NCBI GenBank assembly: GCA_965243615.1
Contig: CBDEVO010000003.1
Location: 3,347,141 to 3,411,140, forward strand
From: Vicinamibacterales bacterium
GTDB lineage: Bacteria > Acidobacteriota > Vicinamibacteria > Vicinamibacterales > UBA8438
Direction of reading: 5' to 3'
Length of the DNA stretch: 64,000 bases
Position numbers and translations under genes: made by a program. The notes below the pieces were generated by a model. That model worked only from the letters and a program-made list of their open reading frames with translations. It searched no databases and was not told the DNA's origin. Shown here piece after piece: positions 19,578 through 35,545 of this stretch (the stretch's first letter is position 1; every line of letters begins with the position of its first letter).

Positions 19578-21584
19578 CTACGGTAGCGGCAGCGCCAGCG
19601 CGACGAGCTGCTCGCGGGCGTCGCCGCCCCCGACGGCGAGGACGATGTACTGCCGGCCGTCGGCGAGGTAGCTGATGGGCGCCGACGACGACCGCGCCGG
19701 CAGCTCCATCTCGAACGCCTCGTAGCCGGCCTCCTTGTCGAACGCCCGCAGCCGGTTCGACTCGATGCCCTGGCCGATGAAGAGCAGGGTCTTCGTCAGC
19801 AGCGGCCCGCCGCCCTTCTCGTAGTTGCCGAGCGGCGGCAGGTCCATGCCGCGCAGCGCCTCGTGGTCGCGGGGGCCGTCGCCGAGGGGCACGCTCCACA
19901 GCTTCTCGCCGGCGTTCAGGTCGAGGGCCGCGAGCTGCGAATAGGGCGGCTTGAAGAGGGGCAGGCCCCGCGGCCCGGGCAGGTTGCTCACCCGCGGCCG
20001 GATCGTCAGGTCGGACCGCGCGGGGTCGCCCGGCTCGAGCACCACGAACGAGAAGTGGGCCCAGCTCGGCACGTAGAGGCGGCCCGTCTCTGGGTCGAAG
20101 GCGGCGCCCCACCAGTTGGCGCCTCCGCTCCAGCCCGGCCGCACGATGTTGCCGCCCAGCGCCGGCGGCGTGTAGAGGGGGCCGGCGGTGTGCCGCTCGT
20201 AGATTGCGAGGGCCTCGGCCCGCAACTCGTCCGTGAAGTCGATCAGGTCCTCCTCGAGCGACCCGTTCGTCAGGTAGAGCGGCGGCTTCGTCGGGTACGG
20301 CTGCGTCGGCGAGGTGCGCTCGCCCGGCACCGTCGACGGCGGGACCGGCCGCTCCTCGATGGGCCACACCGGCTCGCCGGTGGCCCGGTCGAAGACGAAC
20401 GTGAACCCCTGCTTGGTGATCTGCGCGACCGCCGCGATATCGCGCCCGTCGACCGTGATGTCGATGAGGTTCGGGGCCGCCGGCAGGTCGTAGTCCCACA
20501 CCGCGTGGTGCACGAACTGGAAGTGCCACACCCGCTCGCCGGTCTCGGCGTCGAGGCAGACCAGCGAGTTCGCGAAGAGGTTGTCGCCGGGACGGTGGCC
20601 CCCGTAGTAGTCGGTCACCGGTGAGCCGATCGGCAGGTACACGTAGCCCAGCTCGGGGTCGGCGCTCATGTTCGACCAGACGTTGGCCCCGCCCGCCCAC
20701 TTCCACGAGTCGTTGCCCCAGGTCTCGTGGCCGAACTCGCCGGGCTGGGGAATCGTGTGGAAGATCCACTTCATCTCGCCGGTGCGCACGTCGTAGCCGC
20801 GGACGTGCCCCGGCGGCGCCTCCTTGCGGCCGGTGCCCTCGGTGATGGCCGAGCCGACGACGACGGTGTCGCCGGCCACGAGCGGGGCCGAGCTGACCGC
20901 GTACTGGCTCGTGTCGATGATGCGGCCGAGGCCCCGGGTGAGGTCGACCCGCCCGTTCACGCCGAAGTCGGGGTCGGGCTCGCCGGTCTTGGCGTCGACC
21001 GAGACCAGCCACGTCCGCCCGCCGGCGTAGAGCAGCCGGGCGTCCTCGCCGTCCGACCAGTAGGCGAGGCCCCGCGAGAGGAAGCCGTGCACGGCGGGTC
21101 GGCCGTCGAGGTAGAGGCCGGGGTCGTAGGTCCAGAGGGTCTCGCCGGTCGTCGGGTCGACCGCCGCGACCTGCCCGAGGTTGGTGGTGGTGTAGAGCAC
21201 GCCGTCGACGACCAGGGGGGTGACCTCGTAGGCGTAGGTGCGGAACCGGCGTCCTTCGCCAATGACCGGGTTCTCCGCCCGCAGCTTCTCGTCGACCGAC
21301 GTCCAGGTCCACGCGATCTCGAGCCGGTCGACGTTGTCCGCGGTGATCTGGTCGAGCGGCGTGTACTTCGTGTGGCCGGGGTCGCCCCCGTAGAAACGCC
21401 ACTCCTTCGGGTCGGCGCCGGCCTGGGCGAGCGCTTCCGGTGGCCCCGTCGCCGCGACCGCCAACAGCAGCATGCCGACCAGGCCGCGTGCCGTCCGCGC
21501 GACCTCGCGGTCGTGTCGGAAGTCTCGCCGGCTCGAAGCCCCTTCGGCGCAAGCGCCTGGCGTACCGCTCCATTGCATGGTCAA
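19578..21584 (-). CDS. PQQ-dependent dehydrogenase, quinoprotein glucose dehydrogenase-like, paralog 2
   Basis: EWRFYGGDPGHTKYTPLDQIT, WHFQFVHHAVWDYDLPAAP, KPPYSQLAAL. True start may be downstream. Confidence 0.92.
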   Translation of the reverse strand: MTMQWSGTPGACAEGASSRRDFRHDREVARTARGLVGMLLLAVAATGPPEALAQAGADPKEWRFYGGDPGHTKYTPLDQITADNVDRLEIAWTWTSVDEKLRAENPVIGEGRRFRTYAYEVTPLVVDGVLYTTTNLGQVAAVDPTTGETLWTYDPGLYLDGRPAVHGFLSRGLAYWSDGEDARLLYAGGRTWLVSVDAKTGEPDPDFGVNGRVDLTRGLGRIIDTSQYAVSSAPLVAGDTVVVGSAITEGTGRKEAPPGHVRGYDVRTGEMKWIFHTIPQPGEFGHETWGNDSWKWAGGANVWSNMSADPELGYVYLPIGSPVTDYYGGHRPGDNLFANSLVCLDAETGERVWHFQFVHHAVWDYDLPAAPNLIDITVDGRDIAAVAQITKQGFTFVFDRATGEPVWPIEERPVPPSTVPGERTSPTQPYPTKPPLYLTNGSLEEDLIDFTDELRAEALAIYERHTAGPLYTPPALGGNIVRPGWSGGANWWGAAFDPETGRLYVPSWAHFSFVVLEPGDPARSDLTIRPRVSNLPGPRGLPLFKPPYSQLAALDLNAGEKLWSVPLGDGPRDHEALRGMDLPPLGNYEKGGGPLLTKTLLFIGQGIESNRLRAFDKEAGYEAFEMELPARSSSAPISYLADGRQYIVLAVGGGDAREQLVALALPLP

Positions 21585-21624
21585 CCCTCCGCAGATTACG
21601 CGGATACGATCTTATGCCAGCCAT

Positions 21625-21712
21625 GAGTCTGCGACGTAGAAGGGCGCGGACTCCTGGACGATTGGTTGGGCGCCGGGCGGAGGCCGCTGCGCGACCTTGC
21701 GGTCGCGCTGGT
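21625..21712 (+). repeat. Dispersed structured intergenic repeat, copy A
   Basis: gagtctgcgacgtagaagggcgcggactcctgg..ttggttgggcgcc..gcggaggccgc..gctggt; matches 58225-58319 and the reverse complement of 60795-60883. Confidence 0.7.
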
Positions 21713-21769
21713 AGTCTCGCCGTCGCGAGAACGCTTACGGCGACGATTGGCGGGCGAGGACCGCCGCAC

Positions 21770-24115
21770 GTGACCCACATCGAGATTCGGGGCGCCCGGA
21801 CCCACAACCTGAAGGGCATCGACGTCGACGTCCCCAAGCACCGGCTCGTCGCCTTCACCGGCGTGAGCGGCAGCGGGAAGTCGTCGCTCGTCTTCGACAC
21901 CATCTGCACCGAGGCGCAGCGCCAGCTCGTCGAGACGTTCAGCACCTATGCCCGCCGCCGCCTGCCGCAGCTCACGCGCCCGCCCGTAGAGGCCATCCGG
22001 AACATCTCGCCGTGCATCGTCATCGACCAGAAGCGCCTCGGCGCGAGCAGCCGCAGCACCGTCGGCACCGTCACCGAGGTCTACACCTACCTGCGGATGC
22101 TGTTCTCGCGCTGCGGGCGGCCGCACGTGGGCTGGTCGCACCGCTTCTCGTTCAACCATCCCGACGGCATGTGCACCGCCTGCAAGGGCCTCGGCAAGCG
22201 GGTCCGCATCGACGTCGACGAGCTGCTCGACCTCGACCGGAGCGTCGAGGAGGGCGCCATCCGCCACCCGAGCTACGCCATCGGCAAGTGGTACTGGCGG
22301 GAGATCGTCGGCTCCCGGGTGGTCCCGCCGGACAAGTCGCTCCGGCGGTTCAGCGAGGCCGAGATGCAGCGGCTGCTCTGGGCCGACGGTCTGATCGTCA
22401 GGAAGGTCCACCAGGGCGAGACCTACGAGCGGCCCTTCGACGGGGTGGCCCGCAAGCTCGAGCGGCTCCACGTCGACAAGAACGAGGACCAGATCCCGAA
22501 GGTGGCGCGGGAGGCGTACCGGCGGCTGTTCCGCGAGCGGCCCTGCCCCGATTGCGGCGGCGCCCGGCTGAACCTCGCCGCGCTGGCAGTCGAGCTGGCC
22601 GGCGGCTGGACCATCGGGCGGCTCGTCGAGTGCGAGCTGACCGAGCTGGACCGGGCGCTCGGGGACCTCGTCGGCCACGACGACTACGCGCCGATCCGCG
22701 AAGTCGTCGAGTCGCTCGTCGCGCGGATGCGAGGGACGCTCCGGCACCTGATCGACATCGGCGTCGGCTACCTGTCGCTCAACCGCGGGGTGCCGACGCT
22801 CTCGGGCGGCGAGAGCCAGCGGGTCAAGATGGCGCGCCAGCTCGACTGCGACCTCGTCGACCTCGTCTACATCCTCGACGAGCCGACCGTCGGGCTCCAT
22901 CCGCGCGACATCGATCACCTCATCGCCATGCTGCGCCGCCTGCGCGATCAGGGCAACTCGGTGCTCGTGGTCGAGCACGACCCCGCCGTCATCCGCGCCG
23001 CGGACTGGGTGGTCGACGTCGGCCCCGGCGCCGGCGACGGCGGGGGCGAGGTGGTCTTCTCGGGTCGTCTCGACGATCTGCTGCGGGCCGACGGCGCCAC
23101 TTCATACGCCCTGCGGGACGGGGTCGCCCCGGCGCGGCGGTGCCGCCGGCCGTTCCGCGACACGCTGGTCATCGAGAACGCGAGCGCCAACAACCTGCGC
23201 AACGTCTCGGTCCGGTTACCGAGGGGCGTGCTGACGTGCATCACCGGGGTCGCCGGGTCCGGCAAGAGCTCGCTCGTCGCCGAGCTCGTCGACACCCTGC
23301 GGCGCGATCCGGCCGAGGGCGGGCGCGGGGTCGAGGTCGTCGTCGTCGATCAGCGCCCCGTCGGACGCTCGTCGCGCTCCAACCCCGCCACCTACGTCGG
23401 GGTGTTCGACCCGGTCCGCAAGCTGTTCGCCGCCGCCAACCGCGTCGCGCCGTCGCTGTTCAGCTTCAACGCCGAGGGCTCGTGCCCGGAATGCAAGGGT
23501 CGGGGCTACCTCGAGGTCGAGCTGTCGTTCCTCGACGACGTGCGCCTCGACTGCAAGGTGTGCGAGGGCCGCCGGTACCGGGACGACGTCCTGGAGCTCA
23601 CGTGGCGAGGGCGGTCCATCCACGACGTCCTCGAGATGACGGTCACCGACGCCCTGGCCTTCTTCGCCTCGGGCGAAGGCGGTGGCGGCCGGGCGCGGCT
23701 CGCCGCCATCGGGCGCGGCCTGCAGCTTCTCGCCGACGTCGGCGTCGGCTACCTGCGCCTGGGCCAGTCCCTGTCCACCCTCTCCGGCGGCGAGGCGCAG
23801 CGCCTGAAGCTCGCGGCCGAGCTGACGCGGTCGGGCAACGTCTACGTCATGGACGAGCCGACTACCGGCCTCCACCCCGCCGATATCGACCGGTTGCTCG
23901 CGATCGTCGACCGGCTCCTCGCGGGCGGCAACACCGTGGTCGTCATCGAGCACAACCTCGATGTCGTCGCCGCCGCGGACTGGATCGTCGACCTCGGCCC
24001 GGAGGGGGGCAGGGCGGGGGGGCGCATCGTCGCCGAGGGCACGCCGGAGGCGGTCGCCGAGCGGCACGCGGTCAGCCACACCGGGCGCTACCTGAAGGAG
24101 CGGCTCGGGCCGTAG
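21770..24115 (+). CDS. UvrA-like ABC ATPase, short class II (UvrA2/DrrC type)
   Basis: GARTHNLKGIDV, GVSGSGKSSL, LSGGESQR, GVAGSGKSSL, LSGGEAQRLKLA and CxxC zinc fingers; about 781 aa; GTG start at 21770. Confidence 0.9.
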   Translation: MTHIEIRGARTHNLKGIDVDVPKHRLVAFTGVSGSGKSSLVFDTICTEAQRQLVETFSTYARRRLPQLTRPPVEAIRNISPCIVIDQKRLGASSRSTVGTVTEVYTYLRMLFSRCGRPHVGWSHRFSFNHPDGMCTACKGLGKRVRIDVDELLDLDRSVEEGAIRHPSYAIGKWYWREIVGSRVVPPDKSLRRFSEAEMQRLLWADGLIVRKVHQGETYERPFDGVARKLERLHVDKNEDQIPKVAREAYRRLFRERPCPDCGGARLNLAALAVELAGGWTIGRLVECELTELDRALGDLVGHDDYAPIREVVESLVARMRGTLRHLIDIGVGYLSLNRGVPTLSGGESQRVKMARQLDCDLVDLVYILDEPTVGLHPRDIDHLIAMLRRLRDQGNSVLVVEHDPAVIRAADWVVDVGPGAGDGGGEVVFSGRLDDLLRADGATSYALRDGVAPARRCRRPFRDTLVIENASANNLRNVSVRLPRGVLTCITGVAGSGKSSLVAELVDTLRRDPAEGGRGVEVVVVDQRPVGRSSRSNPATYVGVFDPVRKLFAAANRVAPSLFSFNAEGSCPECKGRGYLEVELSFLDDVRLDCKVCEGRRYRDDVLELTWRGRSIHDVLEMTVTDALAFFASGEGGGGRARLAAIGRGLQLLADVGVGYLRLGQSLSTLSGGEAQRLKLAAELTRSGNVYVMDEPTTGLHPADIDRLLAIVDRLLAGGNTVVVIEHNLDVVAAADWIVDLGPEGGRAGGRIVAEGTPEAVAERHAVSHTGRYLKERLGP

Positions 24116-24682: not shown

Positions 24683-25150
24683 ATGACCATACCCTGGCAC
24701 AGCCGCCTGTCGCGCCGCGAGCGACAGATCATGGACATTCTCTTCCGGCACGGCCGGGCCCCGGCCAGCGTCGTGCGGGACGAGCTGCCGGGCGATCTCA
24801 GCTCGTCGACGGTCCGCACGCAACTGCGGATTCTCGAGAGGAAGGGACACGTGCGCCACGACGAGGAGGGGCTGCGCTACGTGTACCGTCCGGTCACGTC
24901 GCCGCGGACGGCGCGCCGATCGGCGTTGCGTCACCTCGTCGACACGTTCTTCGAGGGGTCCGCCGAGCGGGCGGTGGCCGCGTTGCTCGGCGGCGAGGCC
25001 AGGCGTCTGACCGACCCCGAGCTGGACCGCATCGCGCGGATCGTCACGGAGGCGAGAGGGGGGCAGCGGGCCGGAGAGCGTCAGGGCGGCGCGCCGGCCG
25101 GCCCGCGGCCGGAGCGCAGCCCGCGACGAAAGCGGGAGGAGCCGCGATGA
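24683..25150 (+). CDS. BlaI/MecI/CopY family transcriptional repressor
   Basis: LSRRERQIMDIL, STVRTQLRILERKGHV, LVDTFFEGS; ATGA overlap with the M56 gene. Confidence 0.92.
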   Translation: MTIPWHSRLSRRERQIMDILFRHGRAPASVVRDELPGDLSSSTVRTQLRILERKGHVRHDEEGLRYVYRPVTSPRTARRSALRHLVDTFFEGSAERAVAALLGGEARRLTDPELDRIARIVTEARGGQRAGERQGGAPAGPRPERSPRRKREEPR

Positions 25151-26871
25151 TCCCGCTCGCAGCGCTGACCTTCAAGGTGTCGGCCATCCTGCTCCTCGCC
25201 CTGGCCGGCGCGCTGTGCCTGCGGCCGAGGTCGGCCGACGCGAGGCACTGGGTCCTGACCGTCGGCGTCGTGGCGGCGTGCGCGGCCCCGGTCATCCACG
25301 TCCTTCCGCTCCTGCCCGGCGTGCAGGCGGCCCCCGTCGGGCCGCTCGCGTGGAGCGCCGGGCCGGTGTTCGAAGCGCTCCGCCTGCGTCCCTACGTGGC
25401 CCCGCTCACCGAACCGGCCGGCCCCGGCGCCGCGTTGCCCCCGGTGGAGCGGGGTCCTTCGGGGCGCCGATCGGGCTCGTCGCGACCGGTTGCGGTGGCC
25501 GCGATCGACGCGGCCGCGGGCCGGCTCGGCGCGGCGATCTGGTTGACGGGCGCCGCCGGCGGTGTCGGCGTGCTGCTCGTCGGACTGGCGAGGCTCCGCC
25601 GCCTCCGCGCGTCGGCGCGGCGGGTGACGGGAGGGCCGTGGCATCGGCTGTGCGGCGACCTCGCGCGGTCGTGCGGCTGCCGGCGCGGCGTCGATCTCCT
25701 GCTGGGGCCGGCCCCCGGGCTGGTGGCGACGTGGGGCTGGCGGCGGCCCGTCGTCATGCTGCCGGAATCGGCGTCGGGGTGGCCGGCGGAACGGATGCGG
25801 GTCGTGCTGCTCCACGAGCTCGCGCACGCGCGCCGCGGCGACTGGGTGGTGCAGGTGGCGGCCGAGGCGCTGTCGTGCGTCTGGTGGTTCAATCCGCTGG
25901 CGTGGGTGCTTCGGGCGCGGCTCCGCCGCGAGAGCGAGCAGGCCGCCGACGACCTCGTGCTCACGCACGGCGTCGCCCCCGCCGCCTTCGCCATGCACCT
26001 CGTCGAGCTGGCGAGGGAGGTTCGGAAACACCGGCGGACGTGGTTGCCGGCGCCCACGCTGGCGCGTCCGTCACAACTGGAACGGAGGGTGTCCACCATG
26101 TTGAATCCGCGCACGAACCGGCGTCCGATGACGCGCCCCGGCCGCATCTGGAGCCTGGCGGGGATGGCCCTGGCCTCGATGCTTATCGCCAGCCTGCAGT
26201 TGGCCGCGCAGACCGCGGGCATCGCCGGCACCGTCGTCGACCAGGCCGGTCAGGTGGTGGAAAACGCCGGTCTCACGCTCACCGACCGCGGCACCGGGGA
26301 GCAGACGCGGGTGGACGGCGACGACGCCGGCCGCTTCGAGTTCGCCGACCTGGAGCCGGGCGTCTACAGCCTCATGGTCGCCAGGCCGGGCTTCGCGAGG
26401 CTGTTCCGGCGGTTCTCGCTGGAAGCGGGACAGCGGGTCGAGGAAGAGCTGGTGCTCGAGCTCGGCTCCGTGGAAGAGACGATCACGGTGACCGACACCG
26501 GCGAATCGTCCTCCGAGGTGAGGGAGATCAGCGCCGCCACGCGCGAGCGGTACATGCAGAACCGTAACGCGGGTGGCGGCTCGATAGCGCCGCCCATCAA
26601 GATCCGGGACGTCGCGCCCGTCTACCCGGCGTCCGTGCGCGGCAGCGGCTTCGAGGGCAAGGTCGTCCTGGAAGGGCTTATCACGACCGACGGCACGGTC
26701 GAGGTGCTGCAGATTCTCGCCCCGGTGGACCCGGACACGATGACGACGGTGCACCCCGACCTGGCCCGCGCCGCCGTCGAGGCGGTCGGCGGATGGCGCT
26801 ACGAGCCGACCCTGCTCCACGGCGTGCCGGTCGACACGCGGATGACCATCGACATAACTTTCCGGCCGTAG
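25147..26871 (+). CDS. M56 (BlaR1-like) metallopeptidase fused to a carboxypeptidase-regulatory-like domain and a TonB C-terminal domain
   Basis: VLLHELAHARRGDW, WWFNPL, ESEQAADD; then IAGTVVDQAG; then PVYPASV, AAVEAVGGWRYEPTLLHGVPV. Confidence 0.9.
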   Translation: MIPLAALTFKVSAILLLALAGALCLRPRSADARHWVLTVGVVAACAAPVIHVLPLLPGVQAAPVGPLAWSAGPVFEALRLRPYVAPLTEPAGPGAALPPVERGPSGRRSGSSRPVAVAAIDAAAGRLGAAIWLTGAAGGVGVLLVGLARLRRLRASARRVTGGPWHRLCGDLARSCGCRRGVDLLLGPAPGLVATWGWRRPVVMLPESASGWPAERMRVVLLHELAHARRGDWVVQVAAEALSCVWWFNPLAWVLRARLRRESEQAADDLVLTHGVAPAAFAMHLVELAREVRKHRRTWLPAPTLARPSQLERRVSTMLNPRTNRRPMTRPGRIWSLAGMALASMLIASLQLAAQTAGIAGTVVDQAGQVVENAGLTLTDRGTGEQTRVDGDDAGRFEFADLEPGVYSLMVARPGFARLFRRFSLEAGQRVEEELVLELGSVEETITVTDTGESSSEVREISAATRERYMQNRNAGGGSIAPPIKIRDVAPVYPASVRGSGFEGKVVLEGLITTDGTVEVLQILAPVDPDTMTTVHPDLARAAVEAVGGWRYEPTLLHGVPVDTRMTIDITFRP

Positions 26872-27698: not shown

Positions 27699-28403
27699 TC
27701 ACCGGGACGGGTCCGTGGCGCCGGCGCCGCACAGGCGCGCCGATTCCGAGAGCGAGCCGAGGGCGAGGCGGGCCGCGCCGCGGTAGTAGTCGGTCGCGGC
27801 GTGCTTGTCGACGAGGGCGAGGCAGGCCGGCGCCCACGCGAGCAGGTGGTCCCGGAGGAAGTCGCTCTGGGCCTGGAAGCACCGCGCGAGGTGCGCCGTG
27901 TCGCCCCGGGCCGCGGCCCCGGCGGCCTGGTCGGACAGGGTGCCCACGAAGGCCAGCTCGAGCCCGAGGTGGTCGTCGGGCTCGCGGTGGACGGCCGGGG
28001 CCTCGACGCCGAACCGCTGGTAGACCTCGCGCACCTGCAGGGTGGGCTCCTGGAAGGTGAGCTTCGTCTTGCTGCGGTGGACCGATTCCCAGGGCGGGGC
28101 GCGCATCTCGCCGGGGCCCACGAAGAGTTGGTTGAAGTCCCACTCGAGGGCGCCGAGCCCGGCCGGGTCCCAGCCCGCGCAGAACGCGTTCAGCAACGCC
28201 AGCCCCGCGGCGGTGCCGTCGTCGCGGGACGGGAAGGGCCACGCCTCGAACAGCCGGTCGCCGGCGAGCGCGGCCAGCCACTCGGCGCGCGGCGCCTCGT
28301 AGAAGCACCGCCCGAGAAAGTGGTAGGCGAGGGCTTGCTCCTCCTGCCGCCGCCGCCACTCGGCCGGCACGGTCGCCGCCTCGTTCGGCGCGGGAGCGCT
28401 CAA
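27699..28403 (-). CDS. TorD/DmsD family redox enzyme maturation chaperone
   Basis: APPWESVH, REPDDHLGLELAF, FLRDHLLAW, YYRGAA. Confidence 0.92.
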   Translation of the reverse strand: MSAPAPNEAATVPAEWRRRQEEQALAYHFLGRCFYEAPRAEWLAALAGDRLFEAWPFPSRDDGTAAGLALLNAFCAGWDPAGLGALEWDFNQLFVGPGEMRAPPWESVHRSKTKLTFQEPTLQVREVYQRFGVEAPAVHREPDDHLGLELAFVGTLSDQAAGAAARGDTAHLARCFQAQSDFLRDHLLAWAPACLALVDKHAATDYYRGAARLALGSLSESARLCGAGATDPSR

Positions 28404-29419
28404 ATGCCGACCCTCACCTGCATCGCGTAGAACAGGAAGCGCCCGCAGATCTCCGACACCGCGACCAGGCCGAACGCGCCGCTGGCGAGGGTTGAAGCGA
28501 GTCGGCGCCGGGGCGCTCGCACGGGCTCGCGGGCGACGGCGAGGACTCCGCCCAGCGCCGCCGCGGCCGCGGCCAGCAGCCCGAGCCGCAGCAGGAGCAC
28601 GCCGCCGTAGTCGCCGCTGAGCCGCTGGGCGCTCGCGGCGGCGGCCGACGTGCCGTCGGCGGCCAGCGCGGCGAGATGGAGCGGCACGATGGCGAACTCC
28701 AGGGCCAGCGCCGCGATGCCGGCCGCCGCGAGCCCGCGGAGGACCGCCGGCGACACCCTGCCTGTGCGCATCGGGTCGTCCGGGCGGTCAGTCGCTTTCT
28801 GTACGACAAGCCCGGCCGTGACTCCGAGGATGCCCAGCCGTAGCGCCGTGCCCGCGAACGCGGCGGGCGTGGCGAAGCTGTTCCAGGCGGGCTGGGCCGG
28901 GAGCAGGTAGATTGCGACCTGGCAGCCGAGAAACGTCAGGCCGGCCGCCGCCGCGAGCCTCGGCAGCCACGCCACCAGCAAGGGATTCGCCGGCACTGCA
29001 TCGGCGGCGCGCCATTCCCGCCACACGAGCATACCCAGCAGCGCCGCGAAGAGGCTGCCGAAGACGATCTCGCGGCTCAACCATGACGACGAGAAGTTCA
29101 CGATGGCGCGCGCGGCCTGGAGCGGGGTGGAGAGGTGAAAGAGGGCCGCGAACAGGCCGGCGGACAGCACCGCCAGCACGATCAGGAGGGAAAGTGCCGC
29201 CTCGCGGCCGACGTCGCCCGCGTTCCCTGCTTCCGGGCCGTCGTGCCGCGCGCCGTCCGCCGGGCGTCGCGCGCTCGGCCCTTCGTCGGCTGTGCGCGTG
29301 CCACGTGGCGCGCGCTGTCGATGCGACAGATACCGCAGGACCTGCAGGACGAGAAACGCCCCCACTGCCGCCTGGGTCAGGACCGTGAAGAACACGAGCG
29401 ACCAGTCGCGCGTCTCCAT
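28400..29419 (-). CDS. DmsC-like membrane anchor subunit
   Basis: DWSLVFFTVLTQAAVG, FHLSTPLQA, SSWLSREI, EICGRFLFY. Confidence 0.9.
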   Translation of the reverse strand: METRDWSLVFFTVLTQAAVGAFLVLQVLRYLSHRQRAPRGTRTADEGPSARRPADGARHDGPEAGNAGDVGREAALSLLIVLAVLSAGLFAALFHLSTPLQAARAIVNFSSSWLSREIVFGSLFAALLGMLVWREWRAADAVPANPLLVAWLPRLAAAAGLTFLGCQVAIYLLPAQPAWNSFATPAAFAGTALRLGILGVTAGLVVQKATDRPDDPMRTGRVSPAVLRGLAAAGIAALALEFAIVPLHLAALAADGTSAAAASAQRLSGDYGGVLLLRLGLLAAAAAALGGVLAVAREPVRAPRRRLASTLASGAFGLVAVSEICGRFLFYAMQVRVGI

Positions 29420-29432
29420 CCGGGCGGCGCGG

Positions 29433-29996
29433 TCAGGCGCGGACGAGCTTGAGGGGGATGAAGCGAATCGCCGGCTTCGTGATCTCGGCGTCGGGCAGCG
29501 GCCCGAACTGGTCGGTGCCGCCCGCCTTCGCCGCGATCTCGTCGAGCGGGCCCCACTGCAGCGCCTTGGTGGGGCACGCCTCGGCGCACGCGGGCCCCCC
29601 GGTGCCGGCGTCGATGCGGTGCGAGCAGAAGTTGCACTTCTCCATCTTGCCGGTCTCTTCGCTGAACTGCGGCGCGTCGTAGGGGCACGCCCACGCGCAG
29701 AGACGGGCGCCGATGCACTTGCTCTCGTCGACGATGACGATGCCGTCGGGCCGCTTGGTGATGGCCCCCGAGGGGCAGGCCTCGGCGCACACCGGGACCT
29801 CGCAGTGGTTGCACGACATCGACACGTGGTACATGTAGGGCCCGCCGTCGCCGTCGCCCTCCACCGTGCGCACCTTGCGCCAGCGCGGCCCCAGCTCGAC
29901 CCCGTTCTCGACCTTGCACGCGACCTCGCAGGTGCGGCAGCCGGTGCACCGGTTGGCGTCGAAGAAGAACGCTACCTGCTTCTGCGTGTCGCTCAT
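29433..29996 (-). CDS. DmsB-like Fe-S electron transfer subunit
   Basis: CTGCRTCEVAC, CNHCEVPVCAEAC, CIGARLCAWAC, CNFC...CAEAC. Confidence 0.93.
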   Translation of the reverse strand: MSDTQKQVAFFFDANRCTGCRTCEVACKVENGVELGPRWRKVRTVEGDGDGGPYMYHVSMSCNHCEVPVCAEACPSGAITKRPDGIVIVDESKCIGARLCAWACPYDAPQFSEETGKMEKCNFCSHRIDAGTGGPACAEACPTKALQWGPLDEIAAKAGGTDQFGPLPDAEITKPAIRFIPLKLVRA

Positions 29997-32476
29997 GCCG
30001 CGTCCCCCGTGGATGCCGCGTGTCCGCCGGCGACCTCCACCATCGACGAGTTCAGCGTGTGGCCGAGCGAGATCGGCTCGTATTTGTCGGGGCTGAGGAT
30101 GCTCGCCGTCTGCTTTTCGTTCACCGCGCCCCAGCCCGTCGTCACGCTCACCACCCCGCGCATGATGCCCTTCGTGACCTGCGCCATCGCCTCGATCTCG
30201 CCGCGGTCGTTGAAGACGCGGATGCGCGCGCCGTCCTCGATGCCGCGCGGCCCGGCGTCGTCGGGGTGAATCTGCAGCACCTGGCTGGCCCAGATCTCGG
30301 TGAGGAAGTCGTGGTGGTGGAAGCTCGAGTTGACGTGGTTGTGGTTCTTGCGGTTGATGAGCTGCAGCGGGTAGCGCGCGGCGCGCGCGGTGTCCACCCA
30401 GGGCGCCTCGACCGGGTGCAGGTACTCGAGGAGCGGGTCGAAGCCCCGCTCCTGCAGGTACAGCGAGAAGAGCTCAATGCGGCCCGACGCCGTGTTGAAC
30501 TTCTTGTCGGCGAACGGGACCCACGGGTTGGGCATGGGATTGACCGGCCCCTCCTCCAATTGCTCCAGGGTCACCCCGGTCGGCTCGAGGACGTGCCGCA
30601 GCAGATCGTCGTCGGGCTTGTCGAAGTCGTCGCCGAAGCCGAGCCGCTTCGCGAGCTCGGTCATGATCCAGCGGTCGGAGCGCGACTCGAAGAGCGGCTC
30701 GATGGCCTGATTCATGAGCTGGATGTAGCGGCTGCGGATGCCCGCCAGCAGGTTCCGCGTCTCGAACAGGGTGGTCACCGGCAGGACGAAGTCGGCGTAG
30801 CGCGCCGTCGTCGTCATGAAGATGTCCTGCACCACCATCAGGTCGATGTTGTCGAGTCCGGCGATGATCTTGCGCGTGTTCGGGTACTGCGTGAGCACCC
30901 CCGTCCCCGCGACGTGGATGGCGCGGATGGGATGTGGCTTGCGATCGACCAGGTACTCGCCGAGCTTGGTGGCGGGGATGCCGTCGATGCGCGGGTTGCG
31001 CTGCAGCGGCACCGGCGGGTTGACGGTCCCGCCCTCGCTCAGGTAGCCGCCGTTGTCGTTGACGCCGCCCCCGAGCACCCCGATGTTGCCGGTGAGCGAG
31101 GCGAGGTAGAGGTGGCCGATGACGGTCAGGGTGCCGTGGTCGGTGCGCTGCGCGCCGGCCATGTTCTGGATGATGGCGGCGGGCTTCGCGGCCGCGTACT
31201 CGCGCGTCAGCGCCGCGATCGAGTCGGGCGGGGCGCCGGTGATGCGCTGCACGACCTCGGGCGTGTAGCGCGCGGCGATGGCGCGCACCCACTCCAGCAC
31301 CGGCTGATAGCGGACGCCGTCGATGGTGTAGCTTCCGCGCAGGGCCGGCCGCGCGCCCGGAGCGTCGGCGGCGACGGGCTGGCCGGCGCCCTCGTCCCAG
31401 ACGACGAAGCTCCCCGGGCCGCTGCCGCCAGTGGTCAGCAGCCGCAGGTCGCGCAGGTCGACGGGCAGCGTCTCGCCCCCGGCCGGCCACCCCCGCGACG
31501 CCGCCTCCAGGTCGTAGCCGCCCTCGCCGAGCCGCACCAGGAACGGCGCGTTGGTGTATTGCCGGACGTACTCCTCGTCGAACAGCCCCTCGTCGAGCAG
31601 AACCTTGATCATCCCGAGCGCGTACGCCGCGTCTGTCCCCGGCCGGATCTGGATCCACCGGTCCGAGAGGGCCGCCGTCTCGCTGAGCCGCGGGTCGATG
31701 GTCGTCAGCCGCGCCCCGTGCTCCTCCCGCGCCTGGAAGATGTTCTTCACGTAGCCCTGGTTCGACACCGCGGGGTTGTTGCCCCAGGCCAGGAAGTACC
31801 GGCTGTGCACCCACTCGTCGCGGAACTCCGACCGCCCGCCCCCGAAGATGGCGTTGAACCCCGAGCTGACCGAGGCGCAGCAGAGCTGCGAGATAATCGG
31901 CGTCGCGCCGCCGAAGCGGTTCCACCAAGCCGAGTAGAGCCCCCGCACCCCCGTCGACAGCGTCGACCAGTTGCCGGTCCCCCCGAAGGCGAGGAACGCC
32001 TGGTTGCCGTCCTCCTCGAGAATCCGGCGGTAGCGCTCGGCGATGGTATCGAGCGCCTCCTCCCAGCTCACGCGCTCCCAGCGGTCCTCGCCCCGCCGGC
32101 CGGCCCGGCGCATGGGGTACTTCAGGCGGTGGGGGCTGTAGAGCTGGCGGATGCGCGAGATGCCGCGGGCGCAGGCGAGCACGTTGAAGTCGGGGTCGCC
32201 GGTCACCTTGACGAGGCGGCCGTCCTCGACGTGCGCGAGCATCGCGCAGTGCAGGCACTCCGGGGTGTTGGCGGTGCGGACGACGCGGGTCGCGGCCGCG
32301 GCGGCCCCGGCGGTGGAGACGCCGGCCGGCGCCCCCCTGGTCGGGTACCGGGACAGGAGCAGCCCGCCCCCGCCGAGCGCTGTGGCGCCCCCGACGAGAG
32401 CGCTCCACTTCAGAAAGCTCCGCCGCGACGCCGAGAAGGCGCCGTCCGGATCGGCTGCATCACGCTTCGGCGGCAT
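29993..32476 (-). CDS. Tat-exported molybdopterin (bis-MGD) oxidoreductase catalytic subunit, DMSO reductase family
   Basis: SRRSFLK Tat motif, RLKYPMRR, ISQLCCAS, IDPRLSETA, DIFMTTTARYADFVLP, HPDDAGPRGIEDG. Start 32476 preferred over track start 32572. Confidence 0.93.
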   Translation of the reverse strand: MPPKRDAADPDGAFSASRRSFLKWSALVGGATALGGGGLLLSRYPTRGAPAGVSTAGAAAAATRVVRTANTPECLHCAMLAHVEDGRLVKVTGDPDFNVLACARGISRIRQLYSPHRLKYPMRRAGRRGEDRWERVSWEEALDTIAERYRRILEEDGNQAFLAFGGTGNWSTLSTGVRGLYSAWWNRFGGATPIISQLCCASVSSGFNAIFGGGRSEFRDEWVHSRYFLAWGNNPAVSNQGYVKNIFQAREEHGARLTTIDPRLSETAALSDRWIQIRPGTDAAYALGMIKVLLDEGLFDEEYVRQYTNAPFLVRLGEGGYDLEAASRGWPAGGETLPVDLRDLRLLTTGGSGPGSFVVWDEGAGQPVAADAPGARPALRGSYTIDGVRYQPVLEWVRAIAARYTPEVVQRITGAPPDSIAALTREYAAAKPAAIIQNMAGAQRTDHGTLTVIGHLYLASLTGNIGVLGGGVNDNGGYLSEGGTVNPPVPLQRNPRIDGIPATKLGEYLVDRKPHPIRAIHVAGTGVLTQYPNTRKIIAGLDNIDLMVVQDIFMTTTARYADFVLPVTTLFETRNLLAGIRSRYIQLMNQAIEPLFESRSDRWIMTELAKRLGFGDDFDKPDDDLLRHVLEPTGVTLEQLEEGPVNPMPNPWVPFADKKFNTASGRIELFSLYLQERGFDPLLEYLHPVEAPWVDTARAARYPLQLINRKNHNHVNSSFHHHDFLTEIWASQVLQIHPDDAGPRGIEDGARIRVFNDRGEIEAMAQVTKGIMRGVVSVTTGWGAVNEKQTASILSPDKYEPISLGHTLNSSMVEVAGGHAASTGDAA

Positions 32477-33265
32477 CGGCAGTCCCCGGGCAGGTCCCGG
32501 TCGCGATTCGTCACCCGGCTCGACGTGCGGCCCGCGTAGAGAGCATCTTATAGCACCCTCCGCGGAACGCAACCCGCGGCAGGCCCGCGAGATGTCGTGC
32601 AGGCCGCCTCCGGCGGGCGTCGGACCGGACCGGGGTCGTCAGGCTGGCGGCCTCCGCCGCGTGTTCCACCAGGCGTGTCCGGCCAACCTGTTTTCGGCGA
32701 GCCCGGCGCCCGAAGGCCGGCATCCCCGCAGACCGTGGGCCGGCCGGGTGCAGGCGGTCCTCCATGAGGTTTCCAACGCCGAAGCATGACCTCAATGGCG
32801 TCTGAGACCCAAGAACATTGGTGTTGCGGCAACGCACGCCGCGGTCGATGATCCGCCTGATACCGGCCATGCCGCTGAGAGGCGTCTCGAGTTTTCCGGA
32901 GCCGCTTGTCACGACGCTCCAAGGTCCCGGAGGCGGCTAGTGGCTTGGGGCTTCGAGCATCCGCAGCAAGTCCCGAAGAAGCGGGTGGCGTCGCGGACGA
33001 TGGCCGAGGCCAAGACCTGCGGCCCTGGCGCGTCGCCGTGCCCACCCCTGGCGACCCTGGAATGCACGGACCGTGTGGAACCGGGGGAACGCCGCGCCGG
33101 CGTCATTCTGATCGCCGCGGCGATCAGCCGAAGCTCCAGCGCCGGTCCGGCGGTGAACTGGTCTGCCGTTACGTGATCCGCGGGGTCGGCGGTCTGCCGG
33201 CCGGCATCCGCGATGGTGTCAGCGCCAGGCTAATTCAAAACACCGATTCGAATCAGCGTAGTCCA

Positions 33266-33274
33266 TGCTACGCT
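33266..33274 (+). promoter_or_regulatory. Extended -10 promoter TGCTACGCT, probably leaderless
   Basis: 6 nt upstream of GTG 33281; no RBS. Confidence 0.5.
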
Positions 33275-33280
33275 CCGTCC

Positions 33281-34495
33281 GTGATCCATCGAGACCTGTC
33301 GGCGGAGCTGAAGCGCGCGGCCGGGTGGGCCCCGTCCATCACGCTGACGGGCCCGCGACAGAGTGGGAAGACCACGCTGTGCCGGGCGGTGTTCCCGGAT
33401 CATCCCTACCGATCGCTGGAGGCGCCGGACGAACGGGCGTTCGCGGCGGAGGACCCGCGGGCGTTCCTCGGGCAATTCCCGCGAGGCGCCGTCCTCGACG
33501 AGGTGCAGCGCGTTCCGGATCTGCTGTCGTACCTCCAGGGCATCATCGACGCCGACCCCACCCCGGGGCGGTGGATCCTGAGCGGGTCGCAGAACTTCGC
33601 GCTGCTCGAGTCGATCAGCCAGTCGCTGGCCGGCAGGACCGCGATGCATCGACTCCTGCCCCTGTCGTGGGAAGAGATCACGCGCTTCCCTCGATGCCCC
33701 GGCGATCTCGACGAGGCCCTCTTCAGCGGCGGTTACCCGGCCATCTTCGATCGGGGTCCCAATCCGGCGGACTGGTTCCGTTCGTACGTGGCGACCTACA
33801 TCGAGCGGGACGTGCGCAGAGTCGGCAGCGTCGGCGATCTGACGACCTTCCAGCGGTTCGTGGAGCTCTGCGCGGGCCGGAGCGCGCAACTGCTGAACTA
33901 CTCGTCCCTGGCCGACGACTGCGGCATCTCGCAGCCGACCGCGAAGGCTTGGTTCAGCATCCTGGAGGCGAGCTTCATCGCGTTCCACCTGCCCGCGTTC
34001 GGCATGAAGCAGCGCCGTCGGCTGGTGAAGATGCCCAAGCTGTACTTCCACGACACCGGCCTGGCTTGTTGGCTGTTGGGAATCCGGGAGCCGCGGCAGC
34101 TTCGCGCCCATCCGCTGCGGGGAGCCCTGTTCGAGACCTGGGTGGTCTCCGAGGTGGTCAAGCACCGTACTCACGGCGGCGAGAGCGGCGGTCTGTCGTT
34201 CTACCGGGACCGCAACGGGGCCGAGCTCGACCTGGTAATCGACGAGGGGGACGCGCTGACGCTCGTCGAGGCGAAATCCTCCGCCACGGCGTCCGCGAGT
34301 TTGCTGAACGGCTTGAAGCGCGTGCGGCCGCATCTACAGGATCTGCGCCCGGAATGCGACGCGGCCGTGGTCTATGGCGGCGAGGAGCTCCAGCAGCGCA
34401 CGGCTGCCCGGTTGATCCCGTGGCGCCTCGTGCGCACGGTGGCCTCCACCGAACGTCGATCGCCGGTTCGGATCGACCGGTCGGCAGGGCAGTGA
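33281..34495 (+). CDS. AAA_14 ATPase with C-terminal DUF4143 domain
   Basis: GPRQSGKTT, LDEVQRVP, LSGSQNF, SLAGR, KLYFHDTGL, GALFETWV, FYRDRNGAELDLV. Confidence 0.92.
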   Translation: MIHRDLSAELKRAAGWAPSITLTGPRQSGKTTLCRAVFPDHPYRSLEAPDERAFAAEDPRAFLGQFPRGAVLDEVQRVPDLLSYLQGIIDADPTPGRWILSGSQNFALLESISQSLAGRTAMHRLLPLSWEEITRFPRCPGDLDEALFSGGYPAIFDRGPNPADWFRSYVATYIERDVRRVGSVGDLTTFQRFVELCAGRSAQLLNYSSLADDCGISQPTAKAWFSILEASFIAFHLPAFGMKQRRRLVKMPKLYFHDTGLACWLLGIREPRQLRAHPLRGALFETWVVSEVVKHRTHGGESGGLSFYRDRNGAELDLVIDEGDALTLVEAKSSATASASLLNGLKRVRPHLQDLRPECDAAVVYGGEELQQRTAARLIPWRLVRTVASTERRSPVRIDRSAGQ

Positions 34496-34642: not shown

Positions 34643-35545
34643 ATGCGCAGCCTGTCGCTCGTCGTCCTTCTGCTGATGGCCCCGGTCCCTGCGCTGGCGC
34701 AGGCGGTCGAGGCGCCCCGCACGCTCTCCGGCGCGCCGGACCTGAGCGGCTACTGGGAGTACCGCAGCACGACGCCGCTCGAGCGGCCGGTGGCGCTCGC
34801 GGGCCGGGAGGTGCTGACGCCCGAGGAAGAGGCGGAGTACCTGGTCGGGCGCCACGCCGCCATCGGGCGCGAGCGCGACCTGCAGCTCAACGCCGACTGG
34901 TGGCAGCCCGGGGGCCTGACCGACGGGCGGACGTCGCTGATCGTGGACCCACCCGACGGCCGGCTGCCGGCGCGCACCGAGGCGGGCCGCGAGCGGGCGC
35001 GCACGCTGGGCATCGCCAGCCGGTTGCGGTCGGCCGACGGCCCCGAGGACCGCGAGCGCTACGAGCGCTGCATCATGGGGCGCACGGTGCCGCTGCTGGC
35101 GGTGTCTCCCAACCGGCTCGCGCAGATCTTCCAGACGCCCGACTACGTCGCCATCCTCCACGAGCAGAACTCCGATCTGCGCATCATCCCCCTCGACGGG
35201 CGCGCGCCGCTGCCCGCGGGGCTCCGCCAGTGGCAGGGGAATTCCCGCGGCCGCTGGGAGGGCGACACGCTCGTCGTCGAGACGACCGGCTTCAAGGGGG
35301 TATGGACGATTCAGGGCACCGGTCCGAACGCGCGCTACGTCGAGCGCATTCGCCTCGCCGGCCCCGACCGGCTGCACTACGAGTTCACGGCGCACGACCC
35401 CGAGTCGTTCGCCGGGCCCTGGACGGTGATGTTCCCCATCACCCGCGCCGCCGGCCCCGTCTTCGAGAACGCCTGCCACGAGGGCAACTACAGCATGCCC
35501 CTCATCCTCCGCGGCGCCCGCGCCGAGGAGCGCGCCGGGCGGTGA
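34643..35545 (+). CDS. Secreted hypothetical protein, EYACHEGN family, paralog 2
   Basis: RTLSGAPDLSGYWE, RTSLIVDPPDGR, WEGDTLVVET, ENACHEGNY. A TATCGT -10 box 8 nt upstream suggests a leaderless start. Confidence 0.85.
   Translation: MRSLSLVVLLLMAPVPALAQAVEAPRTLSGAPDLSGYWEYRSTTPLERPVALAGREVLTPEEEAEYLVGRHAAIGRERDLQLNADWWQPGGLTDGRTSLIVDPPDGRLPARTEAGRERARTLGIASRLRSADGPEDRERYERCIMGRTVPLLAVSPNRLAQIFQTPDYVAILHEQNSDLRIIPLDGRAPLPAGLRQWQGNSRGRWEGDTLVVETTGFKGVWTIQGTGPNARYVERIRLAGPDRLHYEFTAHDPESFAGPWTVMFPITRAAGPVFENACHEGNYSMPLILRGARAEERAGR

What the first reader, a model, noticed from the sequence alone, without database searches (positions are those of the whole stretch)
27699..32476. DmsABCD-like operon with three non-canonical cofactor-ligand signatures
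Seen: (a) the FS0 motif reads TANTPECLHC...C, with Asn where DmsA has its first Cys; (b) the Mo-ligand region reads SQLCCAS (Cys-type, as in PsrA/PhsA/ArrA) rather than the Ser of DmsA; (c) the third Cys group of the B subunit is CIGARLC (GCC codon confirmed). Known: substituting the equivalent Cys102 in E. coli DmsB converts a [4Fe-4S] to a [3Fe-4S] cluster, and NarH has a natural [3Fe-4S] there. Inference: a higher-potential electron wire and a substrate other than DMSO, possibly working in the oxidative direction; an uncharacterised clade.
Basis: partly seen in the sequence, partly recalled or inferred. Interest (0 to 1): 0.65.

Follow-up and report, generated by a model that had tools for sequence, protein, structure and literature searches.

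The report
Unusual molybdenum respiratory enzyme operon
A soil Acidobacterium carries a DMSO-reductase-like, membrane-anchored molybdenum enzyme from a widespread family with no named or studied member found here, and in this lineage two of its iron-sulfur sites have each lost one cysteine, a change kept in about 40 related species.

Summary
All three sequence observations are real, and none is decay or sequencing error. The minus-strand operon A-B-C-D (27699-32476) encodes four proteins:
- A: a Tat-exported Mo-bisPGD catalytic subunit.
- B: a four-cluster ferredoxin.
- C: a DmsC-type anchor that keeps the DmsC residues I recall as quinol-binding.
- D: a TorD/DmsD-family chaperone.

A belongs to a strongly supported clade that I call the "LCC family". 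It is separate from DmsA/YnfE, Tor/BisC, PhsA and NarG. It has an invariant Leu-Cys-Cys where DmsA has its Mo-ligating serine, and a remodelled FS0 motif, x-X3-C-X2-C...C. It scores far below every NCBIfam cut-off, and no homologue carries a specific name.

The first FS0 position is Asn in the Acidobacteriota plus Actinomycetota subclade. It was lost at least twice in the family.

The Cys-to-Ala change in B is at the exact equivalent of E. coli DmsB Cys102. It occurs only in the Acidobacteriota branch, in 40 of 40 complete loci. Of the 150 nearest DmsB-like representatives, 148 keep this Cys.

Most likely this is a menaquinol-linked periplasmic reductase with Cys-ligated Mo, a [3Fe-4S] cluster next to the quinol site, and a three-Cys FS0. 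The substrate is unknown.

Verdict: a new variant of a known kind, of moderate interest.

The parts
29993..32476 (-). Subunit A: Tat-exported Mo-bisPGD catalytic subunit, 827 aa, 'LCC family'
   Evidence: PF00384, PF01568 and the Tat signal are found; PF04879 is not. The best NCBIfam hit is dmsA_ynfE at 348 bits against a cut-off of 777.7. It sits in a 34-row clade with SH-aLRT 100, separate from DmsA/YnfE, PhsA and NarG.
32408..32428 (-). Twin-arginine motif SRRSFLK
   Evidence: Translation and the PF10518 hit.
32246..32269 (-). FS0 motif N70-T-P-E73-C74-L-H76-C77, with Asn in place of the first Cys
   Evidence: ANTPEC(L/I)HC is conserved in all members of the focal clade.
32165..32173 (-). 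Fourth FS0 Cys (C102) and the conserved Arg104 (C-A-R)
   Evidence: Invariant in the family alignment (where they are numbered C103 and R105). Translation.
31877..31882 (-). Cys199-Cys200; Cys199 is at the Mo-ligand position
   Evidence: Aligned with PsrA Cys and DmsA Ser205. Invariant in the family.
29433..29996 (-). Subunit B: DmsB-type four-cluster ferredoxin, 187 aa, with an ATGA overlap with A
   Evidence: PF13247. TIGR02951 DMSO_dmsB scores 184 bits against a cut-off of 214. Alignment with E. coli DmsB.
29682..29717 (-). Cys group III of B: C94-I-G-A97-R-L99-C100-A-W-A-C104-P. Ala97 (GCC, 29706-29708) equals DmsB Cys102 and Leu99 equals DmsB Tyr104.
   Evidence: CIGARLCAWACP is found in every Acidobacteriota locus that holds B.
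28400..29419 (-). Subunit C: DmsC-type membrane anchor, 339 aa. It has a low-complexity loop insert of about 35 residues. His95 (29135-29137) and Glu117 (29069-29071) equal E. coli DmsC His65 and Glu87.
   Evidence: PF04976. Alignment with E. coli DmsC, where both residues are invariant. Translation.
27699..28403 (-). Subunit D: TorD/DmsD-family maturation chaperone, 234 aa, with a TTGA overlap with C
   Evidence: PF02613. DmsD and TorD models hit below their cut-offs. Present next to C in 38 Acidobacteriota loci.

Best explanation
The operon encodes a periplasm-facing, membrane-anchored three-subunit molybdoenzyme built like DmsABC, plus its TorD-type chaperone.

Shown:
- Subunit A is exported by Tat. 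It belongs to a distinct family with no named or studied member, the 'LCC family'.
- Subunit B has 15 of the 16 canonical Cys.
- Subunit C is a haem-less DmsC-type anchor.

Inferred:
- Mo-bisPGD is ligated by Cys199, with a second Cys next to it.
- FS0 is held by only three Cys (C74, C77, C102) and is still wired to the pterin through Arg104.
- The missing Cys in B (Ala97) is the one whose replacement in E. coli DmsB turns the quinol-proximal cluster FS4 into [3Fe-4S]. Nitrate reductase NarH naturally has Trp at the same position.
- B therefore probably carries three [4Fe-4S] clusters and one [3Fe-4S] cluster.
- Subunit C keeps the two DmsC residues tied to menaquinol binding.

Inferred pathway: menaquinol is oxidised at C. 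Electrons pass FS4 ([3Fe-4S]), FS3, FS2, FS1 and FS0 to a Cys-ligated Mo, which reduces a periplasmic oxidant.

The oxidant is unknown. By analogy with other Cys-ligated enzymes and with natural [3Fe-4S] FS4 enzymes, a fairly high-potential sulfur, selenium, metalloid or halogen oxyanion, or a related compound, is the best guess.

FS0 is either a [3Fe-4S] cluster, as in arsenite oxidase, or a [4Fe-4S] cluster with a non-Cys fourth ligand. The sequence cannot decide between these.
For: - Architecture: domains and Tat signal; nearest models are DmsA/YnfE, DmsB and DmsD; gene overlaps ATGA and TTGA.
- Family placement: a 34-row clade with SH-aLRT 100, separate from DmsA/YnfE/Tor/BisC, PhsA and NarG.
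- Ligands: Cys199 aligns with the PsrA Cys in SLCTAP (the Mo ligand Cys173, by my recall) and with DmsA Ser205.
- FS0: C74, C77, C102 and R104 are invariant across the family. Asn or Pro at the first position in two separate branches shows that a three-Cys site is tolerated.
- FS4: Ala97 equals DmsB Cys102. The Ala is fixed in 40 of 40 loci, while 148 of 150 nearest DmsB-like representatives keep the Cys.
- Precedent for FS4: natural [3Fe-4S] FS4 clusters at +70 to +292 mV in Ebd, Ddh, Ser and Nar (PMC8840923).
- Precedent for FS0: natural [3Fe-4S] FS0 in AioA and IdrA (PMC10100899).
- Quinol site: the equivalents of DmsC His65 and Glu87 are invariant.
- Quinone pool: MqnA/MqnD are present; there is no MenA and no UbiA above cut-off.
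Against: - No cofactor, potential or substrate has been measured for any member of the family.
- A [3Fe-4S] assignment from a missing Cys is an inference. Water, or the Asn amide, could complete a [4Fe-4S] cluster.
- The AlphaFold model has pLDDT below 50 exactly in the FS0 loops, so it says nothing about geometry.
- Gene neighbourhoods gave no clue to the substrate.
- In some Actinomycetota the A gene stands without B or C. This shows that the family is not always used as a three-subunit complex.
- The roles I give to DmsB Cys102 and to DmsC His65/Glu87 rest on my recall of the E. coli mutagenesis literature, not on a paper read here.
Confidence: 0.6

Rival explanations
1. It works in the oxidative direction. 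A periplasmic dehydrogenase would oxidise a reduced sulfur, metalloid or organic substrate at Mo and pass the electrons down the wire to the quinone pool.
For: - Enzymes with a [3Fe-4S] FS4, or with a [3Fe-4S] FS0, include oxidative ones: ethylbenzene and DMS dehydrogenases, and arsenite oxidase.
- The host belongs to a lineage that I recall, without checking it here, as mainly aerobic. The genome scan found no NarG-like respiratory reductase.
Against: - The known oxidative enzymes pass electrons to high-potential haem b, cytochrome c or Rieske partners. None uses a haem-less DmsC anchor.
- The genome appears to have only menaquinone, whose potential is low by my recall. A high-potential FS4 would then be an electron trap on the way to the quinone.
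- The DmsC residues I recall as quinol-binding are conserved. This fits quinol oxidation as in DmsABC, but does not exclude the reverse.
Confidence: 0.15
2. The substitutions are electronically silent. Both sites still hold [4Fe-4S] clusters, completed by a non-Cys ligand (Asn70, Glu73 or His76 at FS0; water or hydroxide at FS4). The enzyme then behaves like an ordinary member of its family.
For: - Glu73 is invariant and His76 nearly invariant beside the FS0 Cys residues across the whole family. Type II enzymes use His as an FS0 ligand (PMC8840923).
- The first FS0 position varies (C, N, P) while the rest of the site does not change.
Against: - Ala cannot ligate iron.
- As I recall the E. coli work, every reported replacement of DmsB Cys102 gave a [3Fe-4S] cluster.
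- Pro at the first FS0 position in some relatives cannot ligate either.
- The neighbouring DmsB Tyr104 equivalent has also changed, to Leu99, in the same lineage. This suggests a retuned site.
Confidence: 0.2
3. It is simply a divergent member of a characterised family: a DmsA/YnfE S-oxide or selenate reductase, or a PsrA/PhsA polysulfide or thiosulfate reductase.
For: The best NCBIfam hits are dmsA_ynfE and DMSO_dmsB. The best PDB sequence hit is PsrA. The Mo ligand is Cys, as in Psr and Phs.
Against: - All scores are far below the cut-offs: 348 against 777.7 for dmsA_ynfE, and 237 against 694 for PhsA.
- In the tree the family is separate from the DmsA/YnfE clade, with SH-aLRT 100 for the family itself. 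The true Proteus PhsA and several DmsA paralogues fall elsewhere.
- The ligand is Cys, not the Ser of DmsA. The anchor is DmsC, not the NrfD type of Psr or the cytochrome b of Phs.
Confidence: 0.05
4. Decay or sequencing error: the gene set is on its way to becoming a pseudogene.
For: None found.
Against: - All four ORFs are intact, with coupled junctions.
- The same three residues occur in 40 loci from different species. Across these loci A is 79-96% identical and B 86-98%.
Confidence: 0.01

Closest known systems
E. coli DmsABC / YnfEFGH with DmsD (complex iron-sulfur molybdoenzymes, type III)
   Same: - Gene order A-B-C, plus a TorD-family chaperone.
- Tat export.
- A short (about 190-205 aa) four-cluster B subunit, 47% identical to DmsB.
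- A haem-less DmsC anchor that keeps the His65 and Glu87 equivalents.
   Different: - A is only 29% identical to DmsA and lies outside the DmsA/YnfE clade.
- The Mo ligand is Cys-Cys, not Ser.
- FS0 is N-X3-C-X2-C instead of C-X3-C-X3-C.
- B has Ala at Cys102 and Leu at Tyr104.
- A carries a domain insert of about 80 residues that DmsA lacks.
Type II enzymes (NarGHI, PcrAB, EbdABC, SerABC, DdhABC)
   Same: - A natural three-Cys group III in the beta subunit, giving a [3Fe-4S] FS4.
- A non-Cys residue at the first FS0 position (His there).
- PcrA is the top structural match, and it shares the insert in the middle of A.
   Different: - Type II enzymes have an Asp Mo ligand.
- Their beta subunits are much larger (320-500 aa), with Trp rather than Ala at this position.
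- Their partners are haem b gamma subunits or NarI, not DmsC.
- NCBIfam type II models are missed by a wide margin: 271 against 985 for alpha, and 115 against 481 for beta.
Polysulfide / thiosulfate reductase (PsrABC, PhsABC)
   Same: - The Mo ligand is Cys, in an L-C-x-A context.
- PsrA is the best PDB sequence hit.
- One branch of the LCC family uses an NrfD/PsrC-type anchor.
   Different: - About 23% identity to PsrA in the Foldseek alignment.
- FS0 there is the canonical C-X2-C-X3-C.
- No second Cys after the ligand.
- The window's anchor is DmsC-type.
Arsenite oxidase AioA / iodate reductase IdrA
   Same: They are the known natural cases of a three-Cys FS0 that carries a high-potential [3Fe-4S] cluster (PMC10100899).
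   Different: - They form a distant clade (E about 1e-5).
- The missing Cys there is the fourth, not the first.
- There is no protein ligand to Mo.
- Their partner is a Rieske protein.
Salmonella Xsr1-3 (DmsA paralogues) and NaoABC antimonite oxidase
   Same: Both are recently described DmsABC-like or DMSOR enzymes with new substrates. The Xsr paper notes five FS0 Cys-spacing classes in DmsA-like proteins (PMC13524816; PMC11521347).
   Different: - Xsr proteins keep the Ser ligand and are 40-70% identical to DmsA.
- NaoA clusters near NapA, and NaoC is a Rieske protein.
- Neither is in the LCC family.

Membership tests
DmsA/YnfE subfamily (TIGR02166) | Whole-protein score above the curated cut-off of 777.7 bits | tested here: not met
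   348.3 bits. True DmsA paralogues from Proteus and Citrobacter score 1036-1383 bits.
DmsA/YnfE subfamily (TIGR02166) | Ser as the Mo ligand (E. coli DmsA Ser205 of the precursor) | tested here: not met
   Cys199 occupies that column.
DmsA/YnfE subfamily (TIGR02166) | FS0 motif C-X3-C-X3-C...C | tested here: not met
   The motif here is N-X3-C-X2-C...C, and there is no PF04879 hit.
DmsA/YnfE subfamily (TIGR02166) | Groups with DmsA/YnfE in a phylogeny | tested here: not met
   It forms a separate clade with SH-aLRT 100.
DmsABC-type complex (architecture, not orthology) | Tat-exported A, four-cluster B, DmsC anchor (PF04976) and TorD-family chaperone in one operon | tested here: met
DmsB equivalog (TIGR02951) | Score above 214.1 bits and all 16 Cys present | tested here: not met
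   184.1 bits, and 15 of 16 Cys with Ala97 at the Cys102 position.
Type II DMSO reductase family (TIGR03479 alpha, TIGR03478 beta) | Scores above 984.75 and 480.7 bits; Asp Mo ligand; His at the first FS0 position | tested here: not met
   271 and 115 bits. The ligand is Cys and the first FS0 residue is Asn.
Thiosulfate reductase PhsA (NF012032) | Score above 694 bits | tested here: not met
   237 bits. A true Proteus PhsA scores 1285 bits and sits elsewhere in the tree.
ArrA, TtrA, EbdA, NapA, NarG, FdnG equivalogs | Score above each curated cut-off | tested here: not met
   All are at or below 165 bits against cut-offs of 814-2000.
Antimonate reductase AnrA, selenate reductase SrdA, selenite reductase SrrA (no model in the libraries) | Sequence similarity to the characterised protein | not testable with these tools
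   Their sequences could not be fetched. No homologue in two large searches carries such a name. As I recall them, the Srd gene order (B-C-A) and the Srr NrfD-type anchor differ from this operon.
'LCC family' (defined here) | L-C-C at the Mo-ligand position; x-X2-E-C-x-H/N-C...C-x-R-G FS0 motif; clade support | tested here: met

The most novel reading that the evidence does not exclude
This would be a natural complex iron-sulfur molybdoenzyme whose electron wire both begins (FS0) and ends (FS4) with a [3Fe-4S] cluster. Its Mo would be held by a Cys-Cys dyad that forms a redox-active vicinal disulfide or persulfide during turnover. That would give a chemistry, and a substrate, not yet known for the DMSO reductase superfamily. 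It would be in use in one family of abundant soil Acidobacteria, with genetically tractable cousins in Serratia, Proteus and Citrobacter.
Probability: 0.15. Interest if true: 0.8.

Novelty: new variant of a known kind. Interest (0 to 1): 0.55.

Why it matters
- **A natural mutant.** As I recall it, the E. coli DmsB Cys102 mutants are the textbook demonstration that one Cys decides between [4Fe-4S] and [3Fe-4S] next to the quinol site, and those mutants lose growth on DMSO. Here nature has fixed the same change in a DmsB-type subunit across about 40 species. It offers a way to ask how the rest of the wire and the substrate couple must be tuned for such an enzyme to work.
- **An unstudied family in cultured bacteria.** The LCC family has a Cys-Cys at the Mo site and a remodelled FS0. 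I found no named or studied member, yet it occurs in easily cultured Enterobacterales, Bacillus and Desulfitobacterium. Its substrate is therefore an open question that can be tested.
- **Soil biology.** For soil Acidobacteriota it marks a respiratory or detoxifying capacity that genome surveys currently file under generic 'DMSO reductase' labels.

Tried and rejected
- **Sb(III) oxidase NaoABC.** A Symbiobacteriaceae MAG carries an LCC-family gene (L044), which raised this possibility. Rejected: NaoA clusters near NapA and NaoC is a Rieske protein. L044 has a DmsB-type B subunit and a C subunit homologous to the window's DmsC-type anchor.
- **Salmonella Xsr sulfate reductases.** Rejected: they keep the Ser ligand and are close DmsA paralogues.
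- **AnrA.** I searched with a Desulfitobacterium member to look for a Desulfuribacillus or AnrA name. None appeared. This is not a proper test.
- **Gene neighbourhood as a clue to substrate.**
  - In Acidobacteriota only A-B-C-D is conserved, plus a divergent 300-aa secreted protein of unknown function in 23 loci.
  - In Enterobacterales the neighbours are unrelated housekeeping genes.
  - In Bacillaceae an ECF-sigma/methyltransferase fusion gene sits upstream, or overlaps the start of A.
  - None of this points to a substrate.
- **AlphaFold2 model of A.** Mean pLDDT is 72.8, but it falls below 50 in both FS0 loops, so the geometry of the three-Cys site could not be judged. Foldseek ranks PcrA first. 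All MopB structures score similarly (TM 0.58-0.66), so this does not classify the protein.
- **Coupling of the Asn in A with the Ala in B.** Rejected: Actinomycetota and Anaerolineales members have Asn in A and keep the Cys in B.
- **Failed or repeated scripts.** A first MAFFT run timed out and was rerun. A first attempt to read the phmmer alignment mis-indexed its columns and was replaced by hmmalign.

Full report
**What is there**

The window has about 71% G+C. It lies in a 6.75-Mb, 99.9%-complete genome. Its closest relatives are MAGs labelled Vicinamibacterales, phylum Acidobacteriota.

On the minus strand, four tightly packed genes form an operon:
- A, 29993-32476, 827 aa.
- B, 29433-29996, 187 aa. 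Its ATG overlaps the stop codon of A (ATGA).
- C, 28400-29419, 339 aa.
- D, 27699-28403, 234 aa, with a TTGA overlap with C.

Pfam finds the following:
- A: the molybdopterin oxidoreductase and MGD-binding domains and a Tat signal, but not the Fe4S4 domain PF04879.
- B: the four-cluster Fer4_11 domain.
- C: DmsC.
- D: the TorD/NarJ family.

NCBIfam ranks dmsA_ynfE, DMSO_dmsB and DmsD first. Every score is far below its curated cut-off. For A it is 348 against 777.7, and all the named equivalogs (PhsA, TtrA, ArrA, EbdA, NarG, NapA, FdnG) are missed by wide margins.

A note on numbering. My tool queries for A began at 32479, one codon upstream of the ATG. Residue numbers printed are therefore one higher than those used here.

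**The three observations**

All three are confirmed by translation of the exact coordinates.

*(a) FS0.*
- The motif reads N70-T-P-E-C74-L-H-C77 ... C102-A-R104.
- Against E. coli DmsA (C63-X3-C67-X3-C71 ... C-L-R), Asn70 takes the place of the first Cys.
- There is one residue fewer between the second and third Cys.
- The fourth Cys and the Arg after it are kept.

*(b) Mo ligand.*
- Cys199 of SQLCCAS falls in the column of the PsrA Cys in SLCTAP, which by my recall is the Mo ligand Cys173.
- The same column holds DmsA Ser205. Ser205 is the Mo-coordinating serine, as also stated in PMC13524816.

*(c) Subunit B.*
- Group III reads C94-I-G-A97-R-L99-C100-A-W-A-C104-P.
- In the K-12 DmsB sequence fetched here, the aligned residues are Cys102 and Tyr104.
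- The remaining 15 Cys are present.

**Conservation and distribution**

A search of 5.8 billion proteins, and a scan of one genome per prokaryote species, recovered a graded series of relatives.

In a tree of 69 MopB proteins, 34 sequences form a clade with SH-aLRT 100. References in that tree included:
- E. coli DmsA, YnfE/F, TorA/Z, BisC, NarG, NapA, FdhF, FdnG and YdeP;
- a verified Proteus PhsA;
- several verified DmsA paralogues.

The 34-row clade is separate from all of these. I call it the LCC family, because Leu-Cys-Cys is invariant at the Mo-ligand position. The family also shares the X3-C-X2-C spacing, an invariant Glu before the second Cys, and a near-invariant His before the third.

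The family has three branches:
- (i) Desulfitobacterium, Anaerolineales and relatives, with NrfD-type anchors.
- (ii) The focal branch, Acidobacteriota plus Actinomycetota.
- (iii) Serratia, Yersinia, Proteus, Providencia, Citrobacter freundii, Buttiauxella, Sutterellaceae, Bacillaceae and Symbiobacteriaceae, with DmsC anchors.

None of the homologues in two large searches carries a specific name. The Serratia operon also misses every NCBIfam cut-off.

**The three traits have different histories**

- *LCC* is family-wide.
- *The first FS0 residue.*
  - It is Cys in branch (iii) and part of branch (i).
  - It is Asn throughout branch (ii).
  - It is Asn or Pro in another part of branch (i).
  - On a 102-row tree this needs at least three state changes, and two changes between Cys and non-Cys.
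- *Ala97 in B* is confined to the Acidobacteriota part of branch (ii).
  - Across the 80 genome loci, 40 are N/CC/A (all Acidobacteriota), 34 are C/CC/C, and one (Propionibacteriaceae) is N/CC/C.
  - Two further Actinomycetota B subunits and one Anaerolineales B subunit also keep the Cys.
  - Of the 150 nearest DmsB-like representatives in a 1.8-billion-protein library, 148 have Cys in this column.

The substitutions are therefore neither unique to this sequence nor random. Across the Acidobacteriota loci, B is 86-98% identical, while C is only 43-95% identical.

Within the order the operon is rare and lineage-restricted. It occurs in 4 of 81 evenly sampled genomes. All four are in the window's own family, where it is in 4 of 7. 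Together with the Actinomycetota sister group, this suggests acquisition by transfer.

**How it most likely works**

*Shown.* The subunit set is that of a DmsABC-type complex with a periplasmic active site.

*Inferred.*
- C aligns with E. coli DmsC and keeps His65 and Glu87 (His95 and Glu117 here), which are invariant in the alignment. By my recall these are the residues implicated in menaquinol binding.
- The genome has MqnA/MqnD of the futalosine route. It has no MenA and no UbiA above cut-off. Menaquinone is therefore the likely partner.
- In NarH-type numbering, group III (minus its last Cys) plus the last Cys of group II ligates FS4, the cluster nearest the anchor.
  - Replacing the second Cys of group III in DmsB gives a [3Fe-4S] cluster (my recall of the Rothery and Weiner work).
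  - NarH, EbdB, SerB and DdhB naturally have three Cys there and carry [3Fe-4S] clusters at +70 to +292 mV (PMC8840923).
  - I therefore read B as three [4Fe-4S] clusters plus one [3Fe-4S].
- The change of the Tyr104 equivalent to Leu in the same lineage fits a retuned site.
- FS0 keeps three invariant Cys and the Arg that links it to the pterin. It is probably still a cluster.
  - The only natural precedent for a three-Cys FS0 is the high-potential [3Fe-4S] cluster of AioA and IdrA (PMC10100899).
  - A [4Fe-4S] cluster with a non-Cys ligand cannot be excluded.

**Direction and substrate**

Nothing I found favours the oxidative direction.
- Known oxidative relatives pass electrons to haem b, cytochrome c or Rieske partners, not to a DmsC anchor.
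- With menaquinone as the only quinone, a high-potential FS4 would oppose quinone reduction.
- A [3Fe-4S] cluster next to the quinone site is also normal in both succinate dehydrogenase and fumarate reductase (my recall). The cluster type alone does not set the direction.

The best guess is a menaquinol-driven reductase for an oxidant of fairly high potential. The Cys ligand is shared with Psr, Phs, Ttr, Arr and Nap. This points loosely to sulfur, selenium, metalloid or nitrogen oxyanions, but that is analogy only.

**Structure**

An AlphaFold2 model built from 15 family sequences reached a mean pLDDT of 72.8. Both FS0 loops fell below 50. Foldseek ranked perchlorate reductase PcrA first. PcrA shares an insert of about 80 residues that DmsA lacks. 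All MopB structures scored within a narrow band, however.

**Verdict**

The clade has no named or studied member found here, and the likely [3Fe-4S] reading stands. The idea of a single three-part signature, and the oxidative direction, do not.
- This is a new variant of a known kind of enzyme.

Its value is twofold. It is a natural counterpart of the classic DmsB Cys102 mutants. It also flags a widespread, unstudied Cys-Cys molybdoenzyme family that could be studied in cultured bacteria.

**Limits**
- There are no biochemical data for any member of the family.
- AnrA, SrdA and SrrA could not be compared by sequence.

Noticed in passing
window 33270-34495 (+): A DUF4143-type ATPase ORF sits between A and a 300-aa secreted protein (34643-35545). 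In 23 related loci that secreted protein lies upstream of A, directly adjacent in about half of them. The ATPase was found in only one other locus (L022), so it looks like a recent insertion.
   Followed up: partly
window 28400-29419 (-), residues about 34-70 of C: The DmsC-type anchor carries a low-complexity, Arg/Ala/Gly/Pro/Asp-rich loop that E. coli and Serratia DmsC lack. tblastn alignment lengths for C vary from 339 to 455 residues among the Acidobacteriota loci, so the loop expands and contracts.
   Followed up: partly
L006 and L007 (OZ220718.1, positions about 0.12 Mb and 6.47 Mb): One Vicinamibacterales genome holds two copies of the whole operon, with equal scores to the query (95% identity each). 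They lie near opposite ends of the record.
   Followed up: no
L130, L132, L041 (Actinomycetota): In several Actinomycetota the Asn-type A gene, with its Tat signal, stands alone without B or C next to it. In L131 it has B but no anchor, and in L133 the full A-B-C set is present. Either partners are encoded elsewhere, or A is used differently there.
   Followed up: partly
L060 4703-5935 and L049 4659-5900 (Bacillaceae): A 410-aa fusion of ECF-sigma regions 2 and 4 with a SAM-methyltransferase domain lies just upstream of the start of the LCC-family A gene, overlapping it in these ORF calls. It may be a dedicated regulator.
   Followed up: partly
P0048, P0296, P0302, P0304: Some branch (iii) relatives have His in place of the third FS0 Cys (ECLHH or ECQHH). 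This is another natural variant of the site.
   Followed up: no
L048 (Pseudomonas lundensis strain I31): This copy of the operon is almost identical to that of Serratia proteamaculans (a short terminal branch, 0.047, as its direct sister in the tree). That suggests recent transfer or a mislabelled or contaminated assembly.
   Followed up: no
P0049-P0057 and P0061, P0063 (Dehalococcoidia / Chloroflexota): A neighbouring clade with no named member has G-Y-G-D-S/A at the ligand region, possibly an Asp ligand, together with a canonical four-Cys FS0.
   Followed up: no
window 24683-26871 (+): A BlaI-like repressor is followed by a BlaR1/M56-like membrane protein with a C-terminal TonB-like domain. 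This is my reading of the translations; no domain search was run on these ORFs. They lie downstream of a UvrA paralogue (21440-24115), and their synteny with the operon holds only in the closest relatives.
   Followed up: partly
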